Shown piece by piece: positions 1 to 60,172 of a stretch of 64,000 nt of DNA. A model generated the notes under the pieces. That model made no database searches. It saw only the letters and a list, made by a program, of their open reading frames with translations, and had not been told where the DNA came from. Numbering within the stretch: position 1 is the stretch's first letter; each line of letters opens with the position of its first letter. The stretch spans positions 1 through 64,000 of the forward strand of contig NW_019091357.1 in the NCBI RefSeq assembly GCF_001949145.1, in the 5' to 3' direction. The DNA comes from Acanthaster planci (taxonomy: Eukaryota). Position numbers and translations under genes: made by a program.

Positions 1-36
1 TAACCCTAACCCCTAACCCTAACCCTAACCCTAACC
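1..36. repeat. Telomere-type (TAACCC)n repeat, about 6 units, cut by the window start
   Basis: taaccctaacccctaaccctaaccctaaccctaacc read directly; more degenerate taaccc units at about 275-325. Confidence 0.85.
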
Positions 37-4933: not shown

Positions 4934-7900
4934 TTACAGTTTAGTTGCAGCTGAACTCTCTGGGTCTGTAAAAAAAGCTGAATCTCCATTATCAGAAATC
5001 AAATTTTCCTTTGAGTCCCACTTCTTGCCACCGTCAACTCGATCGTAGAAACTGTCCTCCAGGTCACTATCATACTTTTCGGATGAAGCAGCGTTTGCTC
5101 CAAGGTTTGAGTTCATATTGATGTACACATCTTCAGCTTTCTTAAAGTGAGTCTCTTTGGGTCCATCGGCACTCTCGTAGATCGGGTTCGGTGGGTAGTT
5201 CAGGGGCGACACACTCTTCATATTTGCGTAGGCAGGGGAGTCTTCCAAGGAGGGATTGTCATTCTTACTGCCGCTGTTTTTGCCCATTGAGAACGTGGAC
5301 ATCTCGCAATTTGCTGGGCCGCCTTGGCTGATGTACTCCTTCTCTTCAGTCGAGGGATGATTATTGGATGCACTGAATATGTCTGGTATATCGGTCTCTG
5401 GGTCCTCGCCAGGACTGAAACCTGTATTCAGTAGCGTTACTGGAGCAAGGCCATCCGGTTTCAAGCGAATGTCCTGATTTACAGTTCCCGATTGCTTCCT
5501 GAAATGAGACCCAAGATTCAGGTTTATTTTTCGTTTCAGATTATCAGGGTATAGCCACTTCCCCTTTTTCGAAAATTCTTTACTATATGCAAAGATCTTA
5601 TTTAAGTCTTAGCACAGTCACACAAAACTGAGGTTCCTCTCGATTGCGCATTTTCTTATTTGTCAAATTCACTAAATCTGTGCACCGAAAACAATTTCAC
5701 TGAAGATTTCTAACTTTTGATGGCATTGTCATTCTGTCGGTGTACTAGTGATCGAAGGAAAAGAAGGGAGGTCTCCGTCAAATACATCAGAATGGCTCCA
5801 AATCATGATTGCACTTTCAGAAAAATATGTTAAATGTTGTCTCCTTGAATTACAAACGGACGTTCAAACGGTTGCAGAGTGGTTTATTATGATTATTCCC
5901 TTAAAACCTCGCGTCTCACCTGATTTTACATGCGACTACACAGACCATGCAGATCACCAACAGCAACAGGAGGCCAGCTGCTCCTCCAATTATGTACGGC
6001 AGATAATCTGGTGGGGAAAAGATCGTGTCTGGAATGGATTTCCTAGGTTTGGGCTAATACTTGATGCCAGTGATTCATTGCCTAAAGAGTTTCCACTGCA
6101 AACCGTAGGCTCTCTTGCTGTTCATTCATACAGGTATTTATTTCATTTAGATTTTATATTTTTCCAAGAAAGATTTACTCTCTTCGCAAACTGCACCTGT
6201 CATGGATATCTGGAGCTTGGTTGTCAGTCTGGGCATCTCAGTAAATTTAGAACTCAGTGCTTTGGTGGTTTCTCCATGATCAAATGCTGAACTGGTGGTA
6301 TCTGTAAAGACAATTTATACCTCAATACATCCTGCTTTGATTAATATCCTCAGATCACATTTGGTTTACTTGCAAGGTTGACGACCTCACGAGTATAAAA
6401 GAGACAAATTTCCTATCAATTTATTTCTACTACTATCGATGTAAGTCTGCATGGGCGTAAATCCCACTGGGGGTGGGAGTATTAATGACGATTAAAATGC
6501 ATTCGGTATCACTCAAAAGAGGGAAAACAATTTTCAAAAGCCATAAATATGCCATTCTGAATACACATTACAGATGTACATCAATATTAAGAACATGCAC
6601 CTTAATATACAGTCATATAGTGTCCCCCAACTTTTTAAGGTTTCACGCCCAGGCAAGTCATCCGCCCCACATTTCCCCATCCCTATCCCTTAAGTTCCTG
6701 CACAAATTTACGCCACTGTTAGACTGGTTAATTAACGGTTTATGGACTTTTTCTCCAGAATATGTACATTTGCATCATTGCCAACACAACTCGCCTTGTG
6801 GTAAAGAAGTACTACGAAACACAAGCGAACATCTGTACAACTTACCTTGCACTGTAGTGGCTAGATTTTCAGTTGTCGGTTTCACTGCAGTACTTTTTGA
6901 TGTTTGGATTGGGGACACTTGAGTCGTGTTTGCTATATATCATTGACAAAAAAATTGAGAATTAGCTGTAAACTTCCCTGCTGTGACGTAATAATGCACA
7001 AACTAGACTGTAAGTATTTGTTTTATTTTCAAACAAGAGATGACCGGCGGTGTGGATTTTTATAAAATCACAGAATTTTTATGCATGTCGTCAGAGGATC
7101 CAGTTGGTTTCATAATTTGCGCAAGATAACTACCCTGAAGAATTAAGGAATAATATTTCAACTCGAGTTCAAATAGGAAAGTGATCAAGGCTTGAAATTT
7201 GTAGCCTAAATAACTTGCGGGATTATGGGATCTTTATTTTTGAAATTCAAATGAATTTTATCCCCTTGTGTGGAACGATGGCAAACAAATCTTATAAGAA
7301 AATCAATAAATATAAATGATGTGCCATCAATGTGCGCCTTTTCAAGTTATGATGTCAGTCACTGTAACCCAATGCACATCTAGGCATCAGGGTTGACGGA
7401 TATCCGTGTCAAGTTTCAGGTTTATATCGTCTCAGAGGCACACTGCGGATAATTATTGTCAGGGAAAAAAGGAGACAGATGGGCCACCAATAACAAAAGT
7501 GGACTGCGCCCCGCTAAAATCATGGAGCTATTCCTAAATGGACAAATACAGTAGGATGTGACCAGTGTAACCTTGAGATTTTGGTGTTCAATTGTTGTAA
7601 AAATCCAACGGAAATACGATCTCCACATATACCGGTACGTGTTGCTTTTTTTCCTCCTCCACTGAAAAAAATCAAAGTTCGAACCTGGATACACGCCTGT
7701 GTAGTTACAGATAGGTAAAACATCTGACGACCACGTGCGATTGCCAACACACATCAAAGTAGACTCTCCCAACAACTCAAATCCAGGCTGGCAGGTGAAG
7801 ATGAGTGTTTCGTTGACACCAACACCTACATCCATCACTCTAGCATTAGGGACTGCACCCGGGAAGAAACAGCCAGGGGTCTCAACGGGATCTGTCGATA

Positions 7901-10900
7901 GATAGAGTACAGTCTGAATGTATAAAAATTCAAATAAGAATTTGTTTTCACTTCTGAATTTATTTTCATTTGATGCGGCTCGGGAATGAGTCACGTCCAT
8001 TCTCCTCAGCCATTCATATGCGAATGCTTAAAACTTACCAAGCACATAATTATTCCCATTTTTTGGTGTCTTTTGAACCAGTTCGTCGAAAAAATCGAAT
8101 TTCCTACGATGACCTTATATGTATACGACATGCGCGTGACGTGTACTGCAAGGCGGTGCACGGCCAGCAAGCGCTTTATCAAGTATTGAAAAGGGCCACG
8201 TGACAGGCTTTCGATTATTAACAGTGCCTAAACTGTCTTACGTATTTAATATAAATGAAGAACAAATCGTCAATCCAGGAACGGTGTGAACATATTTTAC
8301 TACAAAAAGTTTAAATTGCAAACCAAAAGAATTATACCGTCGGGTATGATTTTCAAAGAAAGCCTGAAGGCTAAGAACATTTATGAGGTTGGATTCCAAA
8401 ATCTCCATTCTTTGAGAATAGAAAAAAGCTCACGCGTGTGAATGGTAAGGGTATGTTATATTGTACGTTCCAAAGATCGAATTCAAAACATACTAATCGT
8501 AAATCAACTTACCTTGAAATTCATAAATCCCGATTCTAAATTCCCCTCCGCAGGTTTGGCTACCATCGCCTGTGCAAGGATCAGTGCAATTTATCAGATT
8601 GCCATCCAGTTGCGATCCATAAAGAAAAGGATTTGCAAAGGCGCCACCACAGAAGCACTGGTTGCCACCTTCCAGGCCGTAGTACTGGAAGTTTTTAGCT
8701 CTACAAAGTGACTGACAAAAATCGATGGTCATATTGCTGTTGCTTTCGCAATATCTCTCTCCAGGTCCACAAGAGTCCTGGCATACGCCCGCCATGCCAT
8801 CACACTTGATGAGATCCGTCATGATCCGGGCAGAACGATACCCATCACCGTCGAAGTAGCAGCCACGGTAAATACCTGCAGCAAAGGCATGAAAAAGTTA
8901 TGCATAAGATCGTTCAGCAGGTAAACTTCAACCAGTGGCGTATCCAGCGGGGAGGGCAGGGGGCAACTTGCCTTGACCCCCCCCCCCACGGACTTTTGTA
9001 TCATTACTATTTTTCAACTGATATCACTTGATAGGTAATTAGGAAAGAAATTAATCGGTACATTTATTTATTGTAGTAGTCTTGGGACTCCGCCCACTTC
9101 ACTGCTGTCTTGACCTGATCATGCCGTACCGTGGACGCGGGAAACACTTTTGAGTTCGTGGCTTAAGCAAACAGTTTCGTTCTGGTAGTCAATTTGGCCA
9201 ACTGATAAATATCCGCTATTTGTAGGGGGACACTGGGTATCTTGGTGACCTTTATGAACGCCATGTGTTTATTTTATGTGTAAATTGGGGACATTTTGCT
9301 TCTTGTCAGTGACTTCAGTCACGTAACCTCATTTTCTCACGTGTTTCCTGTGTCGTTTCAATGTACATGTACGTGTACGTGCATGTAGTACGGCATGAGT
9401 GGACCGGCGCGTGTGCGCGCCATGGGTGCATGAACTTGTGTACATGTAGTGTATATTGTACTTTTCCGCTGTGACCCCTGACCAAGGACTTGCAGTTTGT
9501 GCGCGTGTGCGCGCACAAACTGCAATCTTTCCAAGCTGTCAATGGGCGACGAAGCTGCACAAATAACGTTACACGTTTGGATCGTTGTGGGTTTACATTC
9601 TACTTTGCAGACAGTCACTCCTTTGGTGCTGTCATTATTGCTATTTTTATTTATGCTAAAATTCAATGTCATATTGCAGAACAGCCTTGAACGCATGCAG
9701 CACGTCAAGTATATGTGATTAATCCAGCGATTGTTGGCGAGGTGCTGGGTGAGTTTAATGCGTGTCCACATCCTTGGACTTTGTGAATTTCTTTGTAATT
9801 TATAATTTGAATCAAATATGATTATATTAATCACAGATAATTACTGTGCGATACATGTTATTTTTACTCAGGATTTGTTTATACTGGGATTTGTTTCTGC
9901 TGGGATTTGTTTCTGCTGGGATTTTGTCACAACCGGATCTTGTTATAGCTGGGATTTTGTTACGGCTGGAAATCAATAAACCCAACATCAATCATCAACT
10001 TTGATTGACTGGTCTCTCTTACTGGAGGATAACACCTCACCCAACGTGGGCTAAGGGCTCACGTACCCCGAACCGACGCACACGCGTCGCTTCACTTCAT
10101 TATCAAATATCTTTTCTTTCCCCATTATTATGTTGACTGAGCCCGAAAGTGCATGTGCGTTTTCAATGTGCCCCTGAAACCAAGAGCTGGATACTCTACT
10201 GAAGTCAACACGCTATAATATTTCATTGCAGGACGTAAGAATTAAAACGTAACACTTGTTTTCACTTAAAAGTATTTTTTCTTCAAAAATTGGGAAATTT
10301 CCAAAACAGGAAAACTATGCACGGTAATTTTACAGCTCAGTGGTAAACAGTATTTAAACAATCATTAAAAAGTGAATTCGAAATTATCTTAAAGCCGTCA
10401 GTGCCAATTTATGGTGGCAAGGATAATACATGGACAAGCTTTCAACAGACCTTATGTTTTGCAATGAAACAAATCAGTTGTGTTTTTCACATTTTAGACA
10501 TTGACCTACACTCAAAACAGACAAATTATTTTACGCCAAAAGCCTGATTCTTCAAATTTGACTTGGAAGATTATGTAGGTGCAAATGTCGAGTTGGTTTA
10601 GTAGCAGAGAGTTGCAATGTATATGAACCACATTGCCAACTTTGTCAACCCGTGGTGTACATTTGGATGGAAAAAAGTGGACCTTAATCATAAAAAATCC
10701 AACAGCATATGTCTACGTAAATCAATATTTATATTTACAGGTTCAGACTGATTCAAGTGTGAATTTATGCCTGACAAAGGGTTCAATTAACTACGAGACT
10801 CGCCGCAACCCAAATTCATGACGCCCACAACCTTGCCCAATTTACAAACCTCAAGCAAAAGATAGTCCTCTCTCAAAACAAGAATAGGTTTTGGGCAGTC

Positions 10901-12146
10901 TCCGCTCTCCGGTTGATAAGAACTGATACGCAAAAAAGGACAGTAGTCATGAAGTATCTCCACAGAGAAGTCAAGCTTATCCTTGAGGGGAAGTTTATCT
11001 TACAAGAACAGATCTCCTTATATTTGTAGGCTCTGAGGGCTGTGCGAGTTATTCGGTATTCTGCTCCCGTTAGTCTCGCAAATTTAATTTCATTATTTGA
11101 TGTTGCAATTTCACAAAATAAGTTTTTAATGGGGAAAGTATATTTACTTTTAGCTATAAATGCCCCGTAGAAACCATTAGAGGTTCCCAACGTACCATTT
11201 ACGGTTACCACTTAATTTGAAAAGTTTTCACTTTTATATTTTTCAATAAAATATATCCTTTTTTCCAGTCAAAAATAAATTTCAAGAGAGACTATTTTTC
11301 CTTGGTTTATTGTGTGAAGGCGTTTTCCTTCTATGCGGCTGCAGCAAATAAAGAATAGAAATTTTTTTTCCACTTTCCTTTATATCTGGACTAGAGGCCT
11401 CGCACCTGAGGTTGAAGTTTTTCAAGATACGATCATATCATTGTTCGAAATGAATGGTTCTGGAATTTGTCATGAATCGCAAAAGCACGTACAAGGTTAT
11501 TTGGTTTCATGGCCAGGACAATATTCATATCAAAACTAGGATTAAAGTGAAGTGATTTAGGCATAGGAATATGTGTGGGTTTTTTTGGCAATAAAATCAC
11601 CGGATTTAAAGACGCATGTTTAGGTTCTCACGTAATTATTATGAGACCTTGAGGGGGAAGTTACATTTCATCCACAAAAATCTCACCTGCAAATTGTTCC
11701 CCCAACCCAATATTCATTGTAAAGGTTTTAAAGACTTTAGATTCTGTGAGAGGTTAATCTCAATGATTTGAACTGGTTTATTGTTAAGAAAAAAATAATC
11801 GACAGTTAAACCCAAGTTAAAACAAAACTCAGAACACTTACAGTACTGACCGTTTCCATTGAAAGCTCAAGTCGGGGATATAGCAATCAGATGAGACCGA
11901 AAAGTATCTCCAAGCTGTACACAAGCCACCAGCCAATAAAGACTTATGACACACGAATGTTTGATACTCGCATAAGATTTTTTTCCCATCCACTTTACTT
12001 CCCCTGGTTGGCTGAATGCAATTTTGACAAAAGTACAGTTTTAGTTTCTTGCATATACACTTACCTGTGGATTTACACTTTCCTAATGAAAGCAGCAAGC
12101 AAGTCACAGCTAGTAAAACAGTTTCGATACCAATTTCTTGTTTCAT
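4934..12146 (-). CDS. Gene A: WSC + CCP(Sushi) type I membrane receptor, about 498 aa, 7 coding exons
   Basis: Exons 12146-12065 (signal MKQEIGIETVLLAVTCLLLSLGKCKST), 8875-8513 (WSC: YRGCYFD...QCFCG...CGGEFRIGIYE), 7891-7685 (CCP: CFFPG...FTCQPGF...CVGNRTWSSDVLPIC), 6932-6846 and 6301-6197 (S/T stalk), 6007-5920 (TM DYLPYIIGGAAGLLLLLVICMVCVVAC), 5498-4934 (tail ending ATKL). All GT-AG, frame continuous (1497 nt). The 6301-6197 and 7685 donors are weaker. Confidence 0.88.
9490..9525. repeat. Perfect 16-bp hairpin
   Basis: ttgcagtttgtgcgcg-tgtg-cgcgcacaaactgcaa, in intron 1 of gene A. Confidence 0.85.
9866..9972. repeat. Degenerate minisatellite, about 6 units of ctgggatt(t)tgtt(tctg)
   Basis: Repeated ctgggatttgtttctg-like units read directly. 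Confidence 0.75.
10292..10302. promoter_or_regulatory. Rel/NF-kB-like site in intron 1 of gene A
   Basis: GGGAAATTTCC fits the kB consensus; motif match only. Confidence 0.3.
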
Positions 12147-14646: not shown

Positions 14647-17600
14647 ATGTTGAAGGTTGCCGTATGCATTTTGGTTGTGACTTGTTCGTTTGAATCAGGA
14701 TTTAGTCAAGACCCAACAGGTGAGGAATCATCCTGACTAACATGATTTGCAACCAAGACAGTAATCACAACTGGGATATACATTTCTCCATTAAACATTC
14801 GTGCTATGGCATTTCTTATACGTGTATTCACTTTGGTTGCCAAAAGTAAAGTGTCATCAATAAAACTGAAATAAAAACTACAGCCTGTTTTATAAAGAGC
14901 AAAAAAGTGCCACAGACATAGCACTGTAGTTCTCTCCCATTTGGGCCACGCTAAACTATGTTATTAGTCATGGTTAAGATGAATCTTTGGTTAACAAAAT
15001 CATACCGTGCACTGTATGTCCTTTAAATGACTGGTTTGCTTTGTTTTCCTTGGATTTATAGTTATTTCCTGAACATTCATCCGTGTGCAATGTCGATGTT
15101 TTCTAAATCACCGCAATCAATTTTGTTCAGCACCACTCTTTTTACATAGAACTGTCTGGTGGCACCTCCTTTACAAATGTTAACCCTTAAGACTCCCTGA
15201 GTGCTAGGCGAGTCCGCTTGTTCCAAATGTTTTGATCGAACTAATCACAATCCTGCTGTGAACGCTCTATTCATAACTTTATATCAAAGCTCTTTCAAAG
15301 GAGCTCCTCATTGGGTGAACTAAATTTCAATACGCATTTTCCAAAATGTTCGTATTTCGTTTTCTATTTGGAATGAAAAATCATGTACCACACTGTGCTC
15401 AGAAATGTCTGCTTGTGTCATCAAAGCGTGATGGCAATGCTAATGATCATCATTCTTGGATTAACCTTCAAAGCCAATTTACGCGTGAAGCATTCGTTTT
15501 CAGAATGGATTTAATATTAGAGTGCTTAGCTGCTTTCTGGAGTTGACATATGCTCCTAAAAGCTGCATGTCATATTTTTCTTTCAGATATTAACCATGGT
15601 TGTTATTTTGACCATTCTCAACGGGCACTGACGGATCTCATCACCTGTGATGATGCAAGGGATTCGTGTCATTCGTCGTGTGGAATTGAGCATTCTTACT
15701 GCCAAAGCACGGGAATGACCATTGATCTCTGCAGGTCTCTCTGCAGGATAAGAAACCTCCGATATTACGCTCTGGAAGCCGGAAAACAATGTTTTTGTGG
15801 AGGTGCCCTCTCAAATCCATTTGCATACGGAAGGGCAGATGGGGCTACAACCAACTGTTCCCATCCTTGCACTGGTGATGTAAATAAAACGTGCGGTGGG
15901 GAATTCAAAATGCAAGTCTATGAATTTAGAGGTAAGAAGTTACCTTATTATTTTAAACACCATGAAATGTATTGTTTGATAAAAACTGAGGATTCATGAT
16001 CAATGATGCATTAAAAATAAACTTACATGTATAAACTATAATTTGTATGTCCTAATTAATTCACCCAATCTCAAATTCTTCCGATTACATTCAGTAATTG
16101 CTCGAGTCATAAGGCCTCTCAAGGCCCTGGCAAAGATACTCATTCACTTTCAGTTTACATAACATGTCTAATTCATCGCTTTTATTGCACCATCATGCAT
16201 CCCAATTTTATATCTCAAATGTGTCATTTTTTCACTCTGTAGGTCCAGTGGATGGCGCGGACTGTTTCCATCCAGGTTTTGTGGAGAACTCTTATATATC
16301 GGATGGTGTGGCCATTACAACCGGAAATAGGCTCAATTTCATCTGTCTGCCCTTACATAAGATTACTGGGGAGGCACAACTCCTTTGTCAGTCCAACAGG
16401 ACATGGGTACCTGCTGTGCTCCCAAGCTGTAGCTTCACCGGCGTATCAGAAGGTAGACAAGCCAACACCAAACCCAAGCGGACACGTCCGTTACCCATCC
16501 ATTATGGTAGTACTCATTGTAACAGGTGATATGGTTGGGTGGTGGAAGATCGTGAAATACATGCACAATCCTCCCCACAACTAAACTCGGCCTAGCATTG
16601 TAGGCCCTGTTGTTTTGGAAGGAACGAATTTTTTTTTTAAAAAAGGCCTATACGTATTTGGATCTTAGTCACAGTGTAACTTTCGCCTCACATTTTTGCA
16701 ATCAATGGTGAGGATTGGGCCTTAAGATTTTGATGGTAATGATGTGAGGTAACTGCACGCAAATGTTTACCACAAACAACTTCCAGCACCTGTGTTGAGT
16801 TGATTTGAGTGTCGCTAGCAGTGGTGAAATTTTTAAGGATCAGAGTGGGCTTTCTGTGAGATCGGTTTGTGTGCATAGGTATATAAAAAACTTACTGATC
16901 CTGTTTCCCATATATACAATCACTCATTGACGAAGAGTTATTTTTTCATGACAGATACTACGACGGAGGTTGTAAAGACTACGCAAATTTTGAGCACCGC
17001 TCAGACTACTACGGCATCAGTGCCACTAACCTCTATAACTGGTAAGATTACTCTGTTCATTCCAGATTATTACCAAGGCATTTAATCCTGCAGAAGTACT
17101 CTTCTTTTCTGAATGGAATAAAGTCAGTTCAGTGCCACTGATCCTAAAAGCTCTATATAATCCTTAAGCATACAAAAAGTTGTCAAACGCATGGTGTAAG
17201 GTGTTTATAAGCCTACATGTACTTTATCAATGTTTGGAAAGCCTTTACTTTTACGTCAAACATTCCCATTTTCTAAGAAAACCTTTTAGCACCTTTCAAT
17301 ATGTTTCTCTCTCTGCTTCCGTTCGTCACTTTCTGATTCCACTATCTTTAACTAGGAAACCTTCCACTTGTTTGTTCAAAAGGGTAATCTAGCGAGGGGA
17401 TAGTAGTCCTGAAGACGTAACAGTGAATAATTGAGCCTTTTCCATTTTCTGTGACAAATTGACTCACAAATCTTGAGACGGCATTAAAAGTCGTGACTGC
17501 GTTTTATAACAGTAGTGCTGCAATCACACGTGACAGCCTTTATGTCATGTCAGTGAACTTTGGATTGGTTTTTCAATGATCAACTCATAAGAAGTAGTTT

Positions 17601-19296
17601 TGAAACCTTTATGGAAATCAAAATTCAACTTGTATTCATGTAAGTATTTTCTTTGCAGCTGTCTTTTCCTTTCAAAATTGTATAATTTAGATTTTGTTTT
17701 CGGAAAAATATTTGTGATGGTAATATTCTGCATGTCGCACTTCTAGTTTTATTTTAAACTAGTTTTTCAAGTGAAGCAGCATCGTTCATGTCCTCATGTA
17801 AGTTGGTTGTACTGAAATTACCTATTACCTGAAAACTGTATCTTCCTTGTCAGATTTCCTACCATACATTATCGGTGGCTCGGCTTTACTACTCTTCATC
17901 CTGGTTGTGTGTTTAGTCAGCATATTTGTCTGCAAAGGAAGGTGGGTAAACTGTTTAAGAAACTACATGAATTAGCTTGCAGCTTGAAAAATTTAAACTG
18001 GGATTGGGGGCTTCTGAAGAAGCACAACTAAGCACTGTGGCTTCTATAGTCACTATCTGTAAAAAATACGCATTTCTCTATTGTGGAATTACATGTAATT
18101 CAAATTGTTTCGTTGCTGTATACGAAGAACATAATCATGTCAGGTTGTTTGCATAAGCTTTTGACCCGTAAAATAGGTATTTCTTTCCCTCTAAAATCCT
18201 ATCTGTAAGACCCAAGAATGCAAAACGATGGATTTCAAATCAATTAAAAACTGAGATGAAAATATTCCAAGGCTGCGACATTTTCACCTTTTGTTTGGCA
18301 TTTCAGTGCGTTTTACGCTCCAGTACCAAACCATATTTTCTAAAAGCAATTCTGAGTAAGAGTAGGCGAGTTCTGTTCATGACAAATTGTTTACTAAAAC
18401 CAAATATGGAAAATGTAAAGTTTTTCAGACCTTTTTCAAATAGCAATAGGTTAAATTTTTAATTTTTAACATGTCAATATGGCAAACAAGAAAATTAAAA
18501 CACATTATGGTCCTTTAGCCTTATAATTCAATCACTATTGCTCACGTAATGTGTTACTACCTCTGTTCATTTTTCTACATGCAGGAAGAGGTCTGGTAAC
18601 TCTGGTCAAGATATTCGCCTGAAGCCTGAGGCATCACCTGTTACGTTCATCAACACTGGATTCCATAATGATGAAAACGAAGAAGCTAAAGTGGAAATGC
18701 CAGATATCCTGTCTGAAGCCCGTAATGCATCCTCACCCAGTCCATCCAGCTTTTACCACACGCAACTCTCAACATTCTCAGAGGACCCTGTCTACTCTAA
18801 CAACGATGCAGTCCGTGCAAATGATACAAGTCCCACTACATATGCCAACGTGAATGAGGGAGTACCATCCACAGACAGCCCACCGAGTCCCATATACGCC
18901 AACTTTGAGACAGTCTTACCAGAGAGTAATTCCGGATATACTAAGCGGTATTCTGCTACCACAGATCGACCAAATCAAAAGCGTGGGTTGTCCTCCGACG
19001 ATCCTGTCGCAGTGCATGCCACTGGGAATCGCCGAGCTAAAAAGAATGCCACAGGGACCAAAGACTTGGTTGGGTGGAGTCGACCAAGTTCTCTTTACCA
19101 GCGCACGACACTGGATGACGATGATACTGAGTCCAATGAGGACAACACAACCATACAACCACATGACCTTTCTGCCGCTATCTACGCCCAAATCGACAAA
19201 AGTCGGAGAAGTGATTCCAGAGAAACTCTCAACTCCGAGCATTCAGGAAACTCCTTCTTTGCTGACCCTGCCAAATCATCAGCAACAAGACTATAG
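14647..19296 (+). CDS. Gene B: WSC + CCP(Sushi) type I membrane receptor, about 504 aa, 6 coding exons; paralog of gene A
   Basis: Exons 14647-14719 (signal MLKVAVCILVVTCSFESGFSQDPT), 15587-15931 (WSC), 16243-16452 (CCP), 16955-17041 (Thr-rich stalk), 17854-17941 (TM DFLPYIIGGSALLLFILVVCLVSIFVC), 18585-19296 (tail ending ATRL). GT-AG, frame continuous (1515 nt); 87-nt and 88-nt exons match A. Confidence 0.9.
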
Positions 19297-45800: not shown

Positions 45801-46410
45801 AAATCACTTTAAGATAATGTCTGACAGCCTGTCACGTGACTCTACTTCATGCAGGCAGAGCCAATAGCAAGTACAGAATATGATTACTGTGTGACGTTAA
45901 AGTGTACTTACACTTCCATGAGATAAACTTAATTGAATAAACGAACAATTGACTACGTCGAGTAGGAGGAGCCGAAGCGTTCGACTGGCCTTTTGTCTGG
46001 CACCAAACCTGCTCAGTCCTGAAAATTTATTCTAAACCAACATCGTACTTTCATACGCATTTCAACAAAAGCCGAGTACTGACCTACCACCTTGGACCGT
46101 CTGCCATGCGAAACTGCCGACAGTAACCCAGAATAGTCGGAAATTGTGACGAGTTTAGAAAGCAACAACTTAATTCAAAAGGTGCTATACACCGGTAAAA
46201 AAACCCGCTTGCATTGGAGTAACAAGCTTAATCCTAACTCCGCTTTGACTATAAGTTTAGCATTCAGCATTTTTGTTGTGTTCTGGTATTTCCGCTGTTT
46301 CTAAAAAAATAATTGAGCCCTCCGATTTTATGACTCTGCTAACTATGGATGGACTGGGATCTGGAGTGGATATTTTCTTGGCGTTTGACTATTTGATCCC
46401 CTCAACGACG

Positions 46411-49400
46411 ATGAACCGATATTTTAAGACATTTTCTACACTGCTTGTTCTTTTTTCCCTTGTCGAGTCAGGTAAGTGCTACAGTTTCGGCCATTTTTAA
46501 TATTTATCCCCTGTAATGGATGTTGGTGCTTCAATAAGATTGGATCAAAGCATGCAGTGTCTGCAGTGCCTGACTATAGGTTTGTGATCCTATTACGACC
46601 AACATTCAGCTGTACAACGCAAATGCTAGAATAATTCATGTCAATCTTCGCCTTCATTGGGAAATGGATTCCCCCTATATATATCATCCTTAGTTGAGTT
46701 TTCAAAGTTAATTTTCTGACATCACTTCATAATATCTTCACTCATTCCATCATACCTCGCGTCATTTGTGCATGACTGACAAGCTAACAACCTCCATTGT
46801 GTTGAGACTATAGATTTCGTAAAAATTTTATCATAGACAGCTGGAGGTAATATTCCGGGTAGGTTGGTGACCATTTGCAATGAAGCCTTAAAAATAAATT
46901 GTCCTCTAGAAACCAGACTAAGGAGTTTGATAGTTGTCCTTTGTTTTCTCTTCCTCCTCTGTGCAGTGAATACTTCTTGTCCAGCACCGCCCCGGCCTCC
47001 AGGCACCGAATATTCGGGCGGAAACTACGTACAATTCAATGAGGGTCAAACTATCACCTACAACTGTACATTTGGATACCAAGTGATAGGCCCCACCACC
47101 AGAAGATGCACAGAGAACGGCACATGGACGGGCACTGACAATGTGTGTCGCATTGGTAAGAGATTGAATCTACAGCATTCAGGATGACTGATTAGCACTC
47201 TCTGAGCAGAGCTATCCTCTTAAAAATTGTCAAACACTTAAGAAAGATATAGTTCCATTTCATCCATATGACACCTCGATTACCACATACACATGCTCAT
47301 TTTCGGCCTGTATTGCATTCCGTGTACCAAATAAACATTTTCATCAGTTATGTTTCCGTATTCACACACGTGTGTGCAGTCTTTTCCACATTGCTGACAA
47401 CGATCATACATCAAATAATGAAATATTTAAAAGGCAAAACATAAAACTTGAGTTCAGTCTGAAAGCATTATTTTCAGAGTGAATTTAGTTGTCATGCTTG
47501 ACATTTCACTTTTCCTTTTTGCCAGCAATTGAAACAATATTTGCAGTTCCCAGGCAAGATCTGAGGACTGCTTCGCTTTTCAAAATACGCGTACAATACA
47601 ATTGAATGATCAAAAGTACTGTTGTCATTTCATTCCTAATGAGCCCTGGGAAAAGCAAATTTTCTAAGTCGTATGGGGAAATTCTCTCACTGGCGGAACG
47701 TGATACAATGCAGTAGGTTCAGTGCGATGTAAGATAAGGCGGCAAGGAGTCTCTGTTGAACGAAGGATTTCAGAAGCCACTGTTTATTAACATCACTCAA
47801 AATTCAGAATGTTCTCAAGGAGCAACATAGGACAGGTCTGAACTGGGCATCTACTCCTATAACTCACTGATGATTCAGTACACTCGCCCATCCGCATTCC
47901 ACTCTTGGAATTATAAAAAGTACACGTTCCAGAACAAATATTCCTGCACAATGCACACGTAATGAATATCCTTCAGTTTTTGATTAGGTATTCCAATATG
48001 AGTATCCATGGTAAGGTCAATTTGTTTGTCAGTCTCCAAAGTGAGCTTGCAATAGAATTGTTGTATTATAACGTTCTTGTCGAAAATTTTGACACGTATA
48101 CATCGCTAATCGCTCGACTTCCCAAGTGTGAAAACAATATCCTGCAATGCCGATCAGACAGGCTATTTTTCTGTTTTTATGAATGTTGCAGTTGAGAAGT
48201 AATCATAATCAGTTTTAAATAGTACGCTTGATTGATTTCCATTCTGTTGTACTTTACCTCCAAACGTTTGTCGTGCTTCCTGAAATTTCGTGTATTTTTA
48301 ATCTTTTCAAAACACAGATGCGGTCTCCCTTGCCATAGCCTGCTTTGTTGGCTTGTCGGCCATTGTTATCTTCATATTTTTAACATGTTGTTTGTGTACC
48401 AGGTAAGCAAGCCACGCAGCTTTAATAGTACATTCTCCGTACTGTAATCCTGTACAATCAAGTGTCCTTCATGCAGCTGTTTGCATCTGTCTAGATGTAA
48501 ACCGCTTCAACTTTCATTGCGAATTGCTCAATGAAAAACAAATGAGGGAAACGGTCAATCAACCCCGATCCAGTGCCTAACTGGGAACCAAAATGACGTA
48601 ATAGTGATCCACGTGAGTGTAGAATGGGGCATCATTTGAACGACTTTTCTATTTAATAAAAATGCAGGTTTCTCAATAATTACATACATGTAGGCCCATT
48701 GATAAGTTCAAGAAAACAAGAAGGGAATGGTCACATACAGATGATATTACAGCTGTTTATTATTGCAGTCGGGAATATCTGGGTTAAAGAGTAAGTGTTC
48801 TAATGTGCAAGGTAAAATCACATAAAATCTCAAATGTCAGCAAATGTTGGCATGCTGCTCGTTACCAATTTAGATGTAAGGGCGGACGCATATGTTATGA
48901 CGCATATGTAGGTTGAGTAATTTCAACATCCGACTGTTTTTTTTAAACAGCAGAGTTCATGAGGTGCTATCAATTGTTTTAGGATGCTTACAAGTAAACT
49001 AGCTCCTGAGGAGGGCATTGACCTTGGCGAAAAATACCGAAGCGCGTGGCATTACTTTTTTGGCGCAAAATGTTCTACTATAGCTCAAAATCTTCTCTTT
49101 TTTGCCTCAAAAGCGGACCTTTTAGTCGCGCGGGGGTCGCGGACGCACCCCCTGCACTCCCCCAAAGGACCTGAAATGTGGTGAAGCAATAGTTCTCTGG
49201 ATCTCTCAATCTGCTATTTTATCCCATACCCACAGGAACCGGCGTGCCAGACGTAGGGCAGAGCATCATCTGACTATTCAACGGCAAGGCAAAGAGGCGG
49301 GAGATGATGGATTGAATGGCCTGGGCGACCAGGAACCTAACCCTTACAAGATGGTTCAGGTGTCAAAAGAACGGGTTGATCGCAGTGACTCTGGACTACA

Positions 49401-49518
49401 GACAGATCTCGATATGGAGGAGATCGACCTGAATAATTTCGATATGGGGGAGCAAGTGGATAGTCCCACAGATAACAACCCACCTCAGGGTAATGGCCTC
49501 ATGTTCATTGAGGAATAA
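46411..49518 (+). CDS. Gene E: single-CCP type I membrane protein, about 205 aa, 4 coding exons
   Basis: Exons 46411-46471 (signal MNRYFKTFSTLLVLFSLVES), 46967-47155 (canonical CCP CPAPPRP...YNCTFGY...RRCTENGTWTGTDNVC), 48318-48402 (TM AVSLAIACFVGLSAIVIFIFLTCCLC), 49236-49518 (tail RNRRARRR...NPYKM...FIEE). 618 nt in frame. Confidence 0.88.
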
Positions 49519-52770: not shown

Positions 52771-52816
52771 TTGGTTTGGTTTGGTTTGGTTTGGTTTGGT
52801 TGGGTTGGGTTTGGTG
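52771..52816. repeat. (GGTTT)n microsatellite
   Basis: ttggtttggtttggtttgg... read directly. Confidence 0.9.
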
Positions 52817-53803
52817 GGATGCGCTCTGTATAACCTTGCGCCAACTTTCGCATTTATAATTCCTGTATACATGAATGCATGAGCATGCATTTTGCCACTA
52901 GAGATCATAAACATCTATGGATATGATTTCCCTAAACTGTCTCTGAATCTGGGTTATACCTTGACTGTATGATGTATCGTCATAGTTTTGGCATTCACAT
53001 CATGTTTGTTTACCTCCCGACAGTTGAGACAACATTAAAAATGTTGCATGGAACTATGAAACAGGTATTTTCTCCCAACCCTTATCCAAACAGGTATACC
53101 TAAACCCACATTATGTAAACACTAACACGGTTTGCTTTCAAACGTATGTAGAGGGTGTGGAAACTTTAGAAAGGTTTTATCGGTCGACCTATTCCTTTTT
53201 AATGGTAATCTAGAACCTGAACCAACCAAAGTAGGTGAAAGGTATTTACGCGACACAAACACTATCTGAAAGAGAAGTTTCTGAGACCCATCCTGGCTCA
53301 TTGTTGAACTTACCCGCCAAATAATGTACCATACACAATGGTTTTTCCCAGGTCATTTATTAGACTTGACCCAGTCTCTTCAGACAGATTCTACATACCG
53401 GTACACTCTAATCTGAAGGTCAAACGTTTTATTTTAGGCTGTTTATCTACAGCTAAATAAGTGAAAATCGCCAAACTGACGTCTAAATGTATATTACATT
53501 AGAAGTCGTAAATGGCACTGAACACTAAATTAAGTCTAGTCCCCGCTAAATCAATTTCGACTATGGAGTCACTGCAGTCACAGGAGAGAGAGGGAGAGAC
53601 ATTGACAAGTGCCAGTAAAATAAAAAGCAAACTTGAACGACGTCTAAGTATGTATATAAGCATGCGCACATGACATTAGGTGATATCAAGTTGGAACAAC
53701 AGTGTTTCGTAAAAGTTCAGTCGGCCTTATTTTCACATGTAGACTACTCAGAGCTTTACCTTAATCACTGCTTCGTTTGGTTAATTTTTTCGCCATCTTC
53801 AAC

Positions 53804-55461
53804 ATGTTTTTCGGGTTCTGTAGACATTGGCGGAGTAGGAGAGTTTTCGGGGTGCTGCTACGAACTTTGGTATGGCTACAACTCTATGAAGTCATCATGG
53901 GTACGTCTGGAAACCCTTTCAATTGACTAGGATCACGGTCAGAACATAATCTGCTCAACACGAAATTTAAATCATTAAGCTGTACACACACATACGTACA
54001 TTACAAAAGGAGGGATACAGACATTGCTACACACTTCCACTTGTATGTGCAAGTATCATCAGATTTTTTTTAAGGAATGCTGCTTCGTTTTGTTCCTCGT
54101 TCGGAGAGTTTTATAAACCTTTAACATTTACAAGACACAGTGCTTTTTATCTTCTGTTTTGACAGCACAAGCAGACAAAGGATGCCCAGAGTTTACGTGT
54201 AGTCCTCCTCCATCTTCCTTCTCGACCAGACCGAGAATCGGTGAAGAGTCATGCTATCAATACGGTACGTTACTCACAGTGGATTGCCAGATTGGGTTTG
54301 AGCCACGACGGGGACCTGAAAGCGCATTCAACGTGGTTTGCTATCGAGACAACACATGGCAATGGTCGGATTCCTGTGTAATAGGTAGATTCTTTATCAG
54401 ATTTTGACTATGGTCATTATATTAAAAAAAAATACTGTGAGTAAATTAACAGTTAATATTTCAGATTTTTTTGAGCTTGTAATGTCGCCGTTAGGTATTT
54501 TCCTTTGATACCAACATGTCAAACAGGTCAAGAGGTTCTCTTTCAGGGAAGCCGATTTAAAAAAAGAAATTCAAAGCTGGGCTTTTTAACTTTACAAAAA
54601 AGCAGCCTGCGTTTACTGACCGAGGGTTTGGATCTTCTGCCATTGTGAAGTCACTCTTTAGGGATAAGTCACATGGTATGAGTCCGGGGTAAGTCTGGTG
54701 GTGCAAAAGGAATTACTTCTAAGCCTAATGTGTGACTATTGTCTTACAGATATTTTCTCAGTCATCATAGCCGGTATAGTAACATCCCTTGTGGTCTGCA
54801 CCTTCTTTGTGGTTATGTACTGCATCTTCTGCAGGTAAACAACTTCTTCATTCAGGTCATCATGTTGTGTAGAATAATCAACAAACTGGTCATACAAAAA
54901 CCCCAAATAACTCAACCCAACTATCACCCATATTGGGACAATTTGTGATTAGCATACATGACTGTGAATTTGCCATTTCAACTGCATACCCGCACCAACA
55001 ATTTGTCATACTTTCAATCGTCCCTTTTTACATAAAAGGTTTCTGTAAATTGTAACTGAGCTACAAAAATGTTGTTAAACAAATAACTTTGATGAAGGAC
55101 AGTCTATTTAAGACACAAGTTAGCAGAATTGGTACAGACTACTCTAGCATTGGATGCATTAGATAGGGCAACAATCGTGTAGGTTCGATTTGTATTTCAC
55201 GTTTAGTGCATGTGATACATTTGCATTAATTTTGTCTTGAGTCAGATAACTGAATTCATTCCTAGGAAAAAACAAATCAAACCATAATCTTTTTGATACT
55301 AATAACTTCTGATAACTGAAACAAGGAAGAAGATGATTTCTATGAACACATGATTGTTGAACAGTTTTCCCTCTTTTTCATTGTTTCTTTTTAGGAGAAA
55401 ACGTACAGGAAAGGGCAAGGATGCAAAGAATGCTCAAGACCAAATTGTGGATGGCACATAG
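53804..55461 (+). CDS. Gene F: single 6-Cys CCP-variant type I membrane protein with short Tyr-free tail, about 155 aa
   Basis: Exons 53804-53900 (signal-like, less certain), 54166-54384 (GCPEFTCSPPP...SCYQYG...DCQIGF...CYRDNTWQWSDSC), 54750-54834 (TM DIFSVIIAGIVTSLVVCTFFVVMYCIFC), 55395-55461 (RRKRTGKGKDAKNAQDQIVDGT*). 468 nt in frame. Confidence 0.82.
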
Positions 55462-56390
55462 GAAGTTGCACAGAAATCTTAATTGCTTCCTTTCCACATT
55501 ACAGTGGTTTTCATTGATATTAAAGTGCAAAGGTCACATCAGCTTGATCCTTTGACAATATATGTATTTTAATAAGCAATCCGGAAGCTGTTATATTTTA
55601 TTTTAATTTGAATGTAAAACCAGTCTTTTATGTGGAGCTCCTCAAACCTAAACAATGGTATGGTTATCCAATCTTAGACTCAAAATATAGCTATGCTTCA
55701 TTTTCTTTGCGAAATATACCTGTAAAGTTCAATACGAATTATGTAATTTAATTGAGGTCTAGTGCTAGTTCCGATATATGTCTTGTTTAACCTACTTTTC
55801 GTTTTGTATTAATCTCATGCTGGTGTAAATTCCATATTAACGAACAAAAGTGCGATGTCATCCAACGCAGTGATACAGCGACTTTTTCATACACGGGAAT
55901 TGGTTATAATTTATAAAAAAAGACACATTGAGAAAAGAAAGTTGCACAAAACATCTGTCATGTTCCCAAATAATATTCAAATCATGGACCCTTTCGATAA
56001 GCTACTGTTGTCATAGGTGTACTTGGGTGACCCACACATTTCTCTGCAATGTAATTTAGAGTATCCAGTAGAAGAAATTTGTTCCTGTGTTTGTTATGTA
56101 AAATTTCGATATTTTCGAAGAAAACAACAAGCGTTCCTGGGTGTACACAAGCAAAATCTTGTTCCCACATTACGGAAGAAAAATATTGGATTAGCACCCT
56201 CATTCAGCTAACAAATTTTAAACTTTTTCTAAAAATATTGTTCCATAATTTTTGTTCTATAATGGGCGATATAACTTTGGATTGGTCTCTAACGAACAGT
56301 CTCAGATCTCATTTCGAAGTCGGGAGATCTCCGACAAAGCTACTAACACTCCTGACAAGGCGATTGGCAAAACGTGTTCGAATTTAAACT

Positions 56391-57136: not shown

Positions 57137-60100
57137 ATGCAGGTCATGGCAGAAAGTCGACCCGGGGTTGGGCGAGTATTCGCCCGGTGGAATCCGGCGG
57201 CGTTTGTTACACTTTACCTTGGACTTTTGTGCATGGATTCGGGTAAGTTTTTGGTAATTGGTGGCCATTTTTCTTTGATACTAAATTTTGTCCATGTTGA
57301 CAATGATGTAGGAAACCCATCACTGCCGAGTATTGGTCTGATGTGCTTGCACTTGAGACCTGTTTCTAATTAATTAGTTCCCAATGTAATTGCCAAAGAG
57401 CTTCAAATACGGAAGTGGAGTGTTTAATTCAATAGTGTGAACTGACACAGAGAACTAGACAAATTCATACGTGAATTGAAAGGTATTGTGGTTTCTGACA
57501 CTAAAATACTCAACAACATTCAGCAGTCGTCAACTTCAGTACAGAACCTACATGTTAATTCTGAAGGAAACATTTCTATTCTAACGGAAAATTAGTTGAC
57601 TCCCGGGTTCTTTCATTCTGCAGCAGGTAAACGTAGATTTCAATTCTCTTCTTCAGAGTTTCGTCCAATCACTTTTTTCGAGAGTTCAAAGTATTGTTGT
57701 ACAGATGAGTTATTGCTCATTGATGAGAATGTAAACAATGTGACTAGTTCAAAGTGTAAAACAAACCCAGGAAAATCGTAAGGCAATCTTGACAATCATG
57801 ATACATGTATCTGGAGATAAAGAGACTCAGTCTCAGAGAGTATCTGAAAACTGCTGCTTAAACTTAAGACTTAAAATAACCTTACAATTATTCAAAAGCA
57901 AAATGTTTTTGTTCTGAGTAGCAACCAATGTTTCAAATACTAACACTATAATTATGCAGCAGTGTTCTCAACAATTACCGGTGATGAAACGCTGTCCTGA
58001 TCCTATCCCCATGCTATGTATGCAAAACCAAAAGGAAAATTGTCAACACTCCAACTAAGCCTAGATCCCTTGTCAAATCTACATTAATTTTGCAACAGCA
58101 TGAGTAAGCCAGTGTCCACCTAATGTGTCCTCGTTCAAAGGACATCATTTCCCCTTAAGTTTGTTTTTGTGTGACTCTTGAGCTCTTATTTATAAGTTTA
58201 ACTAACTGTCAAAGTTCTGCCCGTAAAAATAATTTGTTCTACTTTTCTTTCTCATAATAGCAAATTCGCAATGTCCTGCCGGCATGTGTGAGCGCCCTCC
58301 ATCAACGACAAGCACCCAACCCACGAAAGATAGCATGTGCTACAAGTGTGGTGATTCTTTACTTATAAACTGCAATCCGGGATTTCGGCAGAATGGGGAT
58401 AATTACATCGCCAAGTGTGAAAACGAAGTCTGGACACCAGACAACGGTTGCCAAATAGGTAGGAACAGTTTGAGTCCAGAACCTTTTTTATCAGTGTTGG
58501 ATTTTTCTCACGTCGCAAGCATTGATCCTTCAGTGGGAATCTGATGAAATCACCAGGAGGTATATTAAATGGTCTTATGACATCAACCTATTCAGAATTG
58601 TCCTTTCGTAAGAATGCACAGGAAATTGTAAATTTGTTTTTAAGAATGCAACGTTAACTGTACATTCAGTTAAATAAATGGACAGTTTAACCGTCATTTT
58701 ATAAACAGAGACTTGGCAACGTAAGGTTTGGAGCAAATGGAACATAAAGGCGTGTTTGCTCATTATTTCGTACCCGCAGGCTGTTTCCAACCATGATATA
58801 CGTTTCCTTGTAAACCCTTTTTTTAGATCTCTTCACAATACTGGTAGCCTCCAGTGCGTCTTTGGTAGCGATTCTGATCTTTGCCTTATTCGTTCTGTGC
58901 ATTGTGGAATACAGGTAAGATTCAGTCTCATGACGCTGTGAACAATATTTTATTGAAATATATATAAGGCAGAAAACGCGCCAAGTAAAATTCAAATAGA
59001 GATTTGTCATAAATGGAATAGACTCTAACGTATCTAACTTCAACTTGACAACATTTAACTTTGACAAGAGCTTAATCGAATAGAAGCCCCGTTATCAGGA
59101 ATGACGTTTACAGTTAGCTTTTTTGACGCACACTTAATCCGTATCTGATATTGAACGATATGGTTCCATTCCAATGAACTGTATTTGGGCTCTGACAGTT
59201 TTTGAAAGGAGCAAGGAAACTTCAATTTTAAAGGGTAACAGAAATACAAAACATTTAGTTCACGTGAAGTATTTAAAAAACAATAAACACGTAACCATTT
59301 CAAAAACATCGTAAATTTAATGTTTACCCCATTAATTGTGACAACAAAATGAAAAAAAAAACATGCTTCCCCCATCCCCTTTTGGCCGTTTGCGCTCCCA
59401 GGCTGATTGGATGACGTCTCGCCAGAACGTTGCCATGTACAGTGTACATATACATGTACATTGTGAACAGTACATGCAGCATCGCACGTTTCGATATACC
59501 ATAGCTTGGCCCTCAGGCAATACTTCATGTGAACTAAATGTTTTCTATTTCTGTCAGGAAAGGGCATATTCAGTTTACTCTAAAAGTAAAAATTGAAATG
59601 TCGAGGTAAGACAACAGTTACAAGTAAGCAGTCATTTAAGGTACAATGTACTGCACCCGATAGAGGGATGGTCCCACACCTACTATTCAACTTAATAAGG
59701 AAAGAAACCTAAGAAATATTTGGCATGCATACTATATTTGGAAATGATAGGGACGTCTCCTTTAATGCTGAACACTAGTCTATGTATTCTTTCGAGGGAC
59801 TTAAGCACCAAGTAAAAGTAACAGCTGGAGGGGCTCTTACTCCCTCTACATCCGTGGCTAATCTACGAAGGTGTCGACAGGATTGGATACAGTGAAAAAA
59901 GACAACGAAACATAACAGAATCTTAAATTCCGAAATGAGATAAATTGCCCTTGTTTTTCAGATTCTCTCCAAAGAAGCGTAAACATCACGAAGTGTCCAA
60001 AGCCAACGGGGAAAAGAAGAGACGAGCTCACCAAAACACTGGTTGTGAGGTCGCCAATGGACAAAAAATCGGAAAAAAGCCCGTTAATGACTCTGAGGAC

Positions 60101-60172
60101 TTTGAGGACGATTTCACTGATGACGAAGAAACGTACCATAACACCACTGTTTACGAAAATCAACAATTCTAA
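57137..60172 (+). CDS. Gene G: single CCP-variant (7 Cys) type I membrane protein with basic/acidic YxN tail, about 200 aa; paralog of F
   Basis: Exons 57137-57242 (signal ...AAFVTLYLGLLCMDS), 58261-58458 (QCPAGMCERPP...MCYKCG...NCNPGF...KCENEVWTPDNGC), 58827-58914 (TM DLFTILVASSASLVAILIFALFVLCIV), 59962-60172 (tail ...DDEETYHNTTVYENQQF*). 603 nt in frame. Confidence 0.86.

What the first reader, a model, noticed from the sequence alone, without database searches (positions are those of the whole stretch)
4934..60172. Cluster of seven WSC/CCP/mucin single-pass receptors: candidate invertebrate receptor complex
Seen: seven consecutive type I membrane genes with no unrelated gene between them, built from signal, WSC, CCP and S/T stalk modules, with divergent ectodomains and very different tails. 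Known: fungal WSC domains bind cell-wall glycans including beta-glucan; CCP + S/T stalk + TM is the layout of CD46 and IL-15R alpha; Botryllus fester carries a sushi domain; clustered receptors with varied Tyr-motif tails typify immune and allorecognition loci. I know of no characterised WSC-CCP-TM family with such tails. Inference: a lineage-specific pattern- or self-recognition complex.
Basis: partly seen in the sequence, partly recalled or inferred. Interest (0 to 1): 0.9.

Follow-up and report, generated by a model that had tools for sequence, protein, structure and literature searches.

The report
Ancient starfish WSC-Sushi receptor cluster
Seven neighbouring crown-of-thorns starfish genes encode or are predicted to encode cell-surface proteins; three belong to an unstudied receptor family shared by starfish, sea urchins and a feather star, and they likely serve adhesion or sensing in tube feet and nerves rather than acting as blood-cell immune or self-recognition receptors.

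Summary
The cluster is real and lies in Acanthaster planci. RNA confirms all 11 introns of genes 1-2. Genes 1, 2, 3, 5 and 7 match NCBI models; genes 4 and 6 rest on my own models. Only genes 1-3 carry WSC. Gene 4 is a bare mucin; genes 5-7 have one Sushi only. Genes 1-3 belong to an echinoderm-wide family (starfish, sea urchins, crinoid): a WSC domain with a four-cysteine insert, then 1-9 CCPs, an S/T stalk, a TM helix and a tail. Genes 2 and 3 have orthologues in Patiria and Asterias whose tails are conserved (54-67% for gene 2; 36-66% for gene 3). The head has been grafted onto new tails several times, twice independently onto kinase domains. Published tissue tables show no coelomocyte enrichment: gene 3 is below threshold there, and genes 1, 2 and a gene 5/6 model are up in oral tissues. 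No ITAM was found, and ITIM-like motifs occur at chance level. Best reading: non-catalytic adhesion or sensing receptors signalling through phosphotyrosine and PDZ docking (ligand unknown). The immune or allorecognition reading is weakened but untested under challenge. My searches found no paper on the family.

The parts
4934..12146 (-). Gene 1 (LOC110978649, 498 aa): signal, insert-WSC, CCP, stalk, TM, 191-aa tail ending SAATKL. CDS exons 12146-12065, 8875-8513, 7891-7685, 6932-6846, 6301-6197, 6007-5920, 5498-4934
   Evidence: 6 of 6 introns in RNA; NCBI protein P0059; Pfam
14647..19296 (+). Gene 2 (LOC110978642, 504 aa): signal, insert-WSC, CCP, stalk, TM, 240-aa tail ending SSATRL; head-to-head paralogue of gene 1. 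Exons 14647-14719, 15587-15931, 16243-16452, 16955-17041, 17854-17941, 18585-19296
   Evidence: 5 of 5 introns in RNA; identical to P0001; orthologues in Patiria and two Asterias species
23881..34018 (+). Gene 3 (LOC110978773, 516 aa): signal, insert-WSC (28450-28797), two CCPs (29178-29531), four stalk exons, TM (32470-32566), 140-aa tail (33610-34018) ending EVVTKL
   Evidence: identical to P0008; orthologues in Patiria and Asterias; no reads laid here
36250..41708 (+). Gene 4 (my prediction, about 387 aa): signal exon (36250-36346, or alternatively 36876-36930), nine mucin-type exons, TM exon 40617-40698, tail exon 41492-41708 with N-T-A-Y and C-terminal TPL; no folded domain
   Evidence: open frame with GT-AG sites and phases 1...1,2; the duplicated three-exon unit differs at 12 of 252 exon letters with no gaps, against 34 of 365 intron letters plus 48 gap letters; no database or read match obtained
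46330..49518 (+). Gene 5 (LOC110980746): signal (ATG at 46411 or 46330), one CCP (46967-47155), TM (48318-48402), 100-aa tail; SUSD3-like layout
   Evidence: contained in P0065; Atlas feature hit SUSD3-like, score 0.92
54166..55463 (+). Gene 6 (my prediction, 5' exon not found): six-cysteine CCP variant (54166-54384), TM (54750-54834), 22-aa tail
   Evidence: Pfam Sushi 21.3 bits; open frame; a gene 5 to gene 6 read-through has exactly the 346 aa of published model gbr.11.6.t1
57137..60172 (+). Gene 7 (LOC110979561, 200 aa): signal, cysteine-rich CCP variant (58261-58458), TM (58827-58914), basic then acidic tail ending YENQQF; best CCP match is gene 6
   Evidence: identical to P0063; mutual best match with gene 6 among 42 CCPs
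15587..15931 (+). Family-defining WSC exon: the eight WSC cysteines plus four extra cysteines (C45, C52, C56, C63 of P0001) in an insert of about 18 residues before the helix
   Evidence: 12 Cys in 25 of 26 rows that cover the domain; the other row is N-terminally truncated; Kremen1 alignment

Best explanation
Genes 1-3 encode members of an old echinoderm family of single-pass surface proteins with a WSC-CCP head on an S/T stalk, and they likely act as non-catalytic adhesion or sensing receptors in nerve, tube-foot and other body-wall cells rather than in coelomocytes. Shown: architecture, splicing of genes 1-2, conservation across echinoderm classes, and an oral-tissue bias in published tables (gene matching inferred). 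Inferred mechanism: the disulfide-locked WSC-CCP head, held out by an O-glycosylated stalk, would bind an endogenous extracellular partner, most likely a protein as Kremen's WSC does, with the four-cysteine insert as a family-specific surface. Binding or clustering would let a cytoplasmic tyrosine kinase phosphorylate the conserved tail tyrosines (YxN and YAQ[IV]DK types) to recruit SH2 adaptors or phosphatases. The C-terminal T-x-L would anchor the receptor to a PDZ scaffold, and N-x-[AG]-[FY] would direct sorting. The meanings of these motifs are recalled, not tested. That the head signals through tyrosine phosphorylation is supported by its fusion to an intact tyrosine kinase in Patiria. 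Gene 4 may be a head-less derivative. Genes 5-7 are small CCP-TM proteins whose kinship to genes 1-3 is unproven.
For: Family members in Acanthaster, Patiria, two Asterias species, Strongylocentrotus, two Lytechinus species, Diadema and Antedon. Gene 2 against Patiria: WSC 72%, CCP 52%, tail 67%; against Asterias rubens 63, 54, 54. Gene 3 against Patiria: 74, 61, 66; against A. rubens 56, 43, 36. All 10 tails examined carry N-x-[AG]-[FY] and end in T-x-L, including the sea urchin, a crinoid and gene 4. The model matches Kremen1 WSC (Z 9.5, rmsd 2.0, 83 aligned) and CCP modules (Z 7.8, rmsd 1.5, 57 aligned). gbr.11.3 and gbr.11.4 are expressed in 7 of 7 tissues and oral-up; gbr.11.5 is absent from coelomocytes; gbr.11.6 is tube-foot-up. 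[quoted passage not shown] Patiria P0002 keeps GxGxxG, the lysine, HRD and DFG.
Against: No ligand, localisation or phosphorylation was shown. Genes 1 and 2 are also expressed in coelomocytes above a low threshold (0.25 reads per library). Neighbours gbr.11.7 and gbr.11.9 are oral-up too, so the bias may be regional, and the oral list includes a C-type lectin. The animals were unchallenged. Tail swapping in relatives resembles paired immune receptors. All 4 coding differences among the 40 variant rows shown were amino-acid-changing, with 83 rows not shown. Tails of distant members align poorly outside the short motifs (under 6 bits), and those motifs are common in membrane proteins. Only YxN in gene 2 exceeded shuffles (P=0.02, uncorrected, 1 of 9 tests).
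Confidence: 0.5

Rival explanations
1. Pattern-recognition receptors of exposed epithelia: the WSC head binds microbial or algal glycans on tube feet and skin, and the different tails act as activating, inhibitory and decoy partners.
For: Some WSC proteins bind beta-glucan (PMC9024836). WSC and Sushi are among the commonest companions of SRCR domains in sea urchin (PMC10855680 passage). Near-identical heads (81-96% in WSC) sit on unrelated tails in Patiria and Asterias. The window starts with six telomere-type repeats. One ITIM- or ITSM-like motif is present in genes 1 and 2.
Against: No coelomocyte or aboral enrichment. Only 1-3 WSC genes per genome were found, not an expansion (limited searches). 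Single WSC domains lack a pocket and proven glycan binding. ITIM-like counts are at chance level.
Confidence: 0.2
2. An animal analogue of the yeast Wsc1 mechanosensor: the head is anchored in extracellular matrix, the S/T stalk works as a spring, and strain in tube feet or body wall is relayed to the tail.
For: Same order of parts as Wsc1 (WSC, S/T region, TM, tail) apart from the CCP. The fold matches Wsc1 (Z 7.9, rmsd 3.0, 86 aligned). Oral and tube-foot bias.
Against: The stalk of gene 2 is only 41 residues and varies from 12 to 154 among relatives. Kremen is the closer structural match. There is no mechanical evidence.
Confidence: 0.13
3. Kremen-like co-receptors for a secreted developmental ligand, which they clear by endocytosis or present to another receptor.
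For: The closest solved WSC is Kremen1 by sequence (E 1e-13) and by fold. A sorting-type motif is conserved in all 10 tails.
Against: No Kringle or CUB domain. The Kringle supplies the hydrophobic pocket for Dkk1. The long tyrosine-rich tails imply signalling of their own.
Confidence: 0.1
4. An allorecognition complex like the Hydractinia Alr or Botryllus fuhc/fester loci (their features are recalled, not looked up).
Against: One transcript contig from another sample differs at 1 of 913 letters across three ectodomain exons. WSC is 97-99% identical between two Asterias species. No ITAM.
Confidence: 0.05

Closest known systems
Kremen1/2 (Kringle-WSC-CUB-TM)
   Same: Animal type I receptor with one WSC domain; best sequence and fold match among solved structures.
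   Different: No Kringle or CUB; a CCP and a mucin stalk instead; the WSC carries an insert of about 18 residues with four extra cysteines; long tyrosine/PDZ tail.
Fungal Wsc1/Slg1 cell-wall sensors
   Same: WSC head, S/T-rich stalk, TM helix and tail; fold match to 7PZ2; NCBI auto-names a sea-urchin member 'protein SLG1'.
   Different: CCP between head and stalk, cysteine insert, shorter stalk, no cell wall, metazoan tail motifs.
CD46/CD55 and other complement-control proteins; IL-15R alpha (recalled)
   Same: CCP fold on an S/T stalk with a membrane anchor.
   Different: Only one or two CCPs, with a WSC in front; matches are generic to the CCP fold (Z 7-8 for dozens of entries); no evidence of C3 binding.
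SUSD3-type single-Sushi membrane proteins (for genes 5-7)
   Same: Signal, one Sushi, TM, short tail; Atlas first hit SUSD3-like, score 0.92, 175 shared features.
   Different: Orthology not tested; genes 6 and 7 have extra cysteines; tails unrelated.
Echinoderm SRCR/WSC/Sushi mosaic proteins
   Same: The same two modules occur together in a Patiria skeletal protein and in sea-urchin SRCR genes (PMC5460417 and PMC10855680 passages).
   Different: No SRCR domain here; whether those WSC domains carry the insert was not tested.

Membership tests
WSC domain (PF01822) | Pfam score above cut-off, eight conserved cysteines, WSC fold | tested here: met
   44-47 bits against 27.8 for genes 1-3; Z 9.5, rmsd 2.0, 83 aligned to Kremen1
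Sushi/CCP domain (PF00084) | Pfam score above cut-off, four Cys plus Trp, CCP fold | tested here: met
   Above cut-off in genes 1, 3, 5, 6; just under in genes 2 and 7; the gene 2 domain folds as a CCP, Z 7.8, rmsd 1.5, 57 aligned
Kremen receptors | Kringle-WSC-CUB ectodomain | tested here: not met
   Only WSC and Sushi in P0059, P0001, P0008
Fungal Wsc1-type mechanosensors | WSC, S/T rod, TM, tail architecture | tested here: met
   Stalks are 33-41% S+T, with a CCP added
Fungal Wsc1-type mechanosensors | Surface aromatic clusters and force sensing | not testable with these tools
   11-16 aromatic residues per WSC; surface exposure and mechanics not measured
Complement regulators (CD46/CD55 type) | Run of four or more CCPs | tested here: not met
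   One CCP (genes 1, 2, 5, 6, 7) or two (gene 3)
Coelomocyte immune receptors | Enrichment in coelomocytes | tested here: not met
   0 of 4 matching models in the coelomocyte-up sheet; gbr.11.5 scored 0 in coelomocytes; gene matching inferred from name, length, domains and order
Inducible pattern-recognition receptors | Microbe or glycan binding; induction on challenge | not testable with these tools
   No challenge data found; the one challenge paper's supplements searched held none of the ids
Invertebrate allorecognition loci | Extreme allelic polymorphism of the ectodomain | tested here: inconclusive
   1 difference in 913 ectodomain letters in one contig; low read depth; 83 variant rows not shown
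ITAM/ITIM receptors | Canonical ITAM or paired conserved ITIMs | tested here: not met
   ITAM in 0 of 16 tails; at most one ITIM/ITSM per tail in genes 1-3, P 0.22-1.0 against shuffles
Receptor tyrosine kinases | Cytoplasmic kinase domain | tested here: not met
   No family at E under 0.1 in any of the seven tail exons (the gene 6 entry was another frame, and its 22-aa tail is too short for a kinase); kinase domains only in Patiria P0002 and Antedon P0076
SUSD3-like proteins (gene 5) | Orthology to vertebrate SUSD3 | not tested
   Feature-level resemblance only
Insert-WSC/CCP family (genes 4-7) | Homology to genes 1-3 | tested here: inconclusive
   Gene 5 CCP best matches bat and crinoid repeat CCPs; genes 6 and 7 pair; tree mostly unresolved; gene 4 shares two short tail motifs only

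The most novel reading that the evidence does not exclude
Echinoderms own a private receptor kit: one cysteine-augmented WSC-CCP head, as old as the phylum, plugged again and again into different outputs (phosphotyrosine/PDZ scaffold, active tyrosine kinase, tandem pseudokinase, short decoy tail), reading one unknown surface or matrix cue in tube feet and nerves, possibly as the first animal counterpart of the yeast Wsc1 strain sensor.
Probability: 0.15. Interest if true: 0.8.

Novelty: new variant of a known kind. Interest (0 to 1): 0.45.

Why it matters
It defines a receptor family, undescribed in the papers I could search, with a diagnostic four-cysteine WSC variant kept across starfish, sea urchins and a crinoid. 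It is testable in Patiria and sea-urchin models. It shows repeated birth of kinase-bearing receptors by grafting one head onto new tails. Surface receptors of tube feet and nerves in a reef-damaging starfish are of applied interest. It is not, on present evidence, the echinoderm allorecognition or immune complex proposed.

Tried and rejected
No whole genome is held for this window, so the copy number elsewhere in Acanthaster was not counted. No RNA holder is on record as such in the run search. Read evidence for genes 3-7 was not obtained, so their junctions stay open. A single-sequence fold was unusable (pLDDT 32); the 29-row fold gave a good CCP and WSC core but pLDDT near 40 over residues 111-128 and the tail. 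The wide structural search was not run; only Foldseek and its re-alignment were. The Atlas gave no usable feature hit for the gene 2 ectodomain. A word-based search with the CCPs of genes 5-7 returned 3 of 249 candidates (genes 5 and 7 and a bat protein), with no gene 6 protein and no starfish orthologue: weak evidence. No orthologue of gene 1 was found. No holothurian, ophiuroid or non-echinoderm member was named among the 10 of 30 hits looked up; 11 of the 30 hits match in 3-6 stretches and look like ordinary multi-WSC proteins (2 checked), and were left out. The first exon coordinates for genes 1-3 were off by 1-3 bases; genes 2 and 3 were corrected, where the first exon of gene 1 was still 3 bases too long, so its limits are taken from the reads. 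Paper searches for the family or its gene ids gave nothing relevant. Supplements of PMC9759900, PMC11957666 and PMC11688612 held none of the ids. The supplement of the Asterias coelomocyte surface proteome PMC13409769 could not be read and may bear on the coelomocyte claim. No earlier findings of this scan were returned. No tRNA genes.
Full report
Source and observation. The gene 2 WSC exon is 100% identical to LOC110978642 of Acanthaster planci, which names the organism. Pfam finds WSC in three exons and Sushi in six genes, two just under the cut-off. Reads laid on 4800-24799 span all six introns of gene 1 and all five of gene 2: 11 of 11 in X16 (1-13 reads each) and in the contigs of X1, 9 of 11 in X17, none in X13. 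NCBI proteins exist for genes 1, 3, 5 and 7. My exon models reproduce those of genes 2, 3, 5 and 7 exactly, and gene 1 maps exon by exon. Gene 4 is my own model: 387 aa, no cysteine in a 255-aa ectodomain, 31% S+T, 14 sequons. Its duplicated three-exon unit is better conserved in exons (12 of 252 letters differ, no gaps) than in introns (34 of 365, plus 48 gap letters), which argues for a constrained gene. Gene 6 lacks an identified first exon. None of 71 other ORFs reached a Pfam cut-off. All seven genes put the TM helix in its own exon, entered in phase 1 and left in phase 2; this layout may simply be common.

The set is not uniform. Genes 1 and 2 are head-to-head paralogues (WSC 55%, CCP 41%, tail 28%). 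Gene 3 is a distant paralogue (WSC 35%). Gene 4 has no domain. Gene 5's CCP best matches bat and crinoid repeat CCPs. Genes 6 and 7 are each other's best match among 42 CCPs, in a tree that is mostly unresolved. Only genes 1-3 are a demonstrated family.

The family. The three WSC domains have 12 cysteines: the usual eight plus four in an insert of about 18 residues that Kremen1 lacks. A profile of this region against 1.84 billion representatives gave 30 hits. Nineteen match in one or two stretches. Of the 10 looked up, all were echinoderm: Asterias, Strongylocentrotus, Lytechinus, Diadema, Antedon. Of the 15 new hits scanned with the insert, 12 have WSC followed by Sushi, and three short ones have WSC alone. 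25 of 26 aligned domains keep 12 cysteines. The profile was built from starfish, so members in other phyla could be missed. Genes 2 and 3 have orthologues in Patiria and Asterias. They are adjacent in Patiria by accession number and share a contig length in each Asterias species; three crinoid members share one contig length too. This linkage is inferred; I did not see the DNA. The three Acanthaster genes are rejected as a clade (p-AU 3e-36), so this is not a recent local expansion.

Tail swapping. Patiria has a copy of the gene 2 head (WSC 81%) on a tyrosine kinase with intact catalytic motifs, and a copy of the gene 3 head (WSC 90%, CCP 94%) on a 20-residue tail. Asterias amurensis has a copy of the gene 2 head (96%) on an unrelated tail, breaking at the end of the CCP exon. 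Antedon has a member with two kinase-like domains that lack HRD and DFG. The two kinase fusions are independent (p-AU 0.0001). This is the strongest point for a paired-receptor reading, and it also shows that the head can be coupled to tyrosine signalling.

Tails. All 10 tails examined have N-x-[AG]-[FY], 25-31 residues into the tail in nine of them, and end in T-x-L. The gene 2 group, gene 1, the sea urchin and one crinoid member also carry a Y-x-x-[VI]-[DN] motif. There is no ITAM in 16 tails. ITIM/ITSM matches in genes 1-3 are at chance level; YxN exceeds shuffles only in gene 2 (P=0.02, 1 of 9 tests). Reading these as sorting, SH2 and class I PDZ motifs is recalled knowledge.

Structure. 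The 29-row model has a confident CCP (pLDDT 82-95) and WSC core, a moderate insert (65-72) and a disordered tail. It matches Kremen1 WSC (Z 9.5, rmsd 2.0, 83 aligned), yeast Wsc1 (Z 7.9, rmsd 3.0, 86) and many CCPs (Z 7-8). PMC9024836 (passages and Discussion read) states that Wsc1 and Kremen WSC lack an obvious ligand cavity, that direct glycan binding by Wsc sensors has not been shown, that the glucan lectin SiWsc3 uses three repeats, and that Kremen's WSC contacts Dkk1. A single WSC therefore does not imply glucan binding.

Expression. In the supplements of PMC11093393 (rows of files 6, 7 and 8 seen; files 6 and 8 are cut; file 11 not searched; text passages and the methods section read), gbr.11.4 is labelled LOC110978642 (gene 2). 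gbr.11.3 (453 aa, WSC, Sushi, TM) has the length of a gene 1 isoform. gbr.11.5 (WSC, two Sushi) fits gene 3. gbr.11.6 (346 aa) equals a gene 5 to gene 6 read-through in length. gbr.11.3.4 and .6 are expressed in 7 of 7 tissues and are oral-up; gbr.11.6 is tube-foot-up; gbr.11.5 is expressed in six tissues but not in coelomocytes, at a threshold of 0.25 reads per library; none of the four is in the coelomocyte-up sheet. Caveats: the matching is inferred, some models are truncated or fused, the animals were unchallenged, and neighbours gbr.11.7 and gbr.11.9 are oral-up as well. No row could be tied to gene 4; gene 7 may be part of gbr.11.7.

Polymorphism. One contig differs at 1 of 913 letters across three ectodomain exons, and both WSC exons show none. 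Against my reading, the four coding differences among the 40 rows shown all change an amino acid (three in tails, one in a CCP), and 83 rows were not shown. The test is inconclusive, but gives no sign of an allorecognition-grade ectodomain.

Literature. Eight searches found no description of the family; the library lacks most subscription papers. PMC5460417 and PMC10855680 (passages) show WSC with Sushi in echinoderm SRCR mosaics. PMC13409769 (one passage; supplement unreadable) does not name these genes in its text.

Verdict. The cluster is real but mixed. At its core is an echinoderm-wide WSC-CCP receptor family with a diagnostic cysteine insert and recurrent tail exchange. Most likely role: adhesion or sensing with phosphotyrosine and PDZ output (0.5). 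Rivals: epithelial pattern recognition (0.2), Wsc1-like strain sensing (0.13), Kremen-like co-receptor (0.1), allorecognition (0.05). New variant of a known kind; interest 0.45.

Noticed in passing
window 1-36: About six TAACCC telomere-type repeats open the window, so the cluster may begin 4.9 kb from a chromosome end.
   Followed up: partly
window 13642-13800: A multi-copy, heavily transcribed element between genes 1 and 2 (reads run on into unlike sequence): a 24-bp perfect hairpin (fold z -7.4) followed by a histone 3' stem-loop match (Rfam RF00032, 34.7 bits, cut-off 34). It holds CTGAAGA...GAAA, recalled as a hammerhead-like core, but Rfam gave no hammerhead hit.
   Followed up: partly
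window 1153-2274, minus strand: GC-rich interrupted ORFs that look, from memory, like a decayed retroelement gag-type region; no Pfam hit.
   Followed up: partly
window 17827-17865, minus strand: NCBI isoform X2 of gene 1 starts with 13 residues encoded antisense inside gene 2 and lacks a signal peptide; no such joint was among those shown.
   Followed up: no
window 49489 to 54166: A GT donor near the end of gene 5 spliced to the gene 6 CCP exon gives an open 346-aa frame, the length of published model gbr.11.6.t1; probably a prediction artefact, since it would place a CCP in the cytoplasm, but read-through was not tested.
   Followed up: partly
window 38196-39673: Tandem duplication of about 724-770 bp carrying three mucin exons of gene 4.
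   Followed up: yes
window 20046-20325: Inverted repeat (48-nt arms) in the gene 2 3' UTR region, with several A>G differences in RNA at 20037-20335; could be A-to-I editing or alleles.
   Followed up: no
window 63380-63613: An S/T/P-rich ORF at the window end may be an exon of the next gene (candidate gbr.11.7, also tube-foot-up); no Pfam hit.
   Followed up: no
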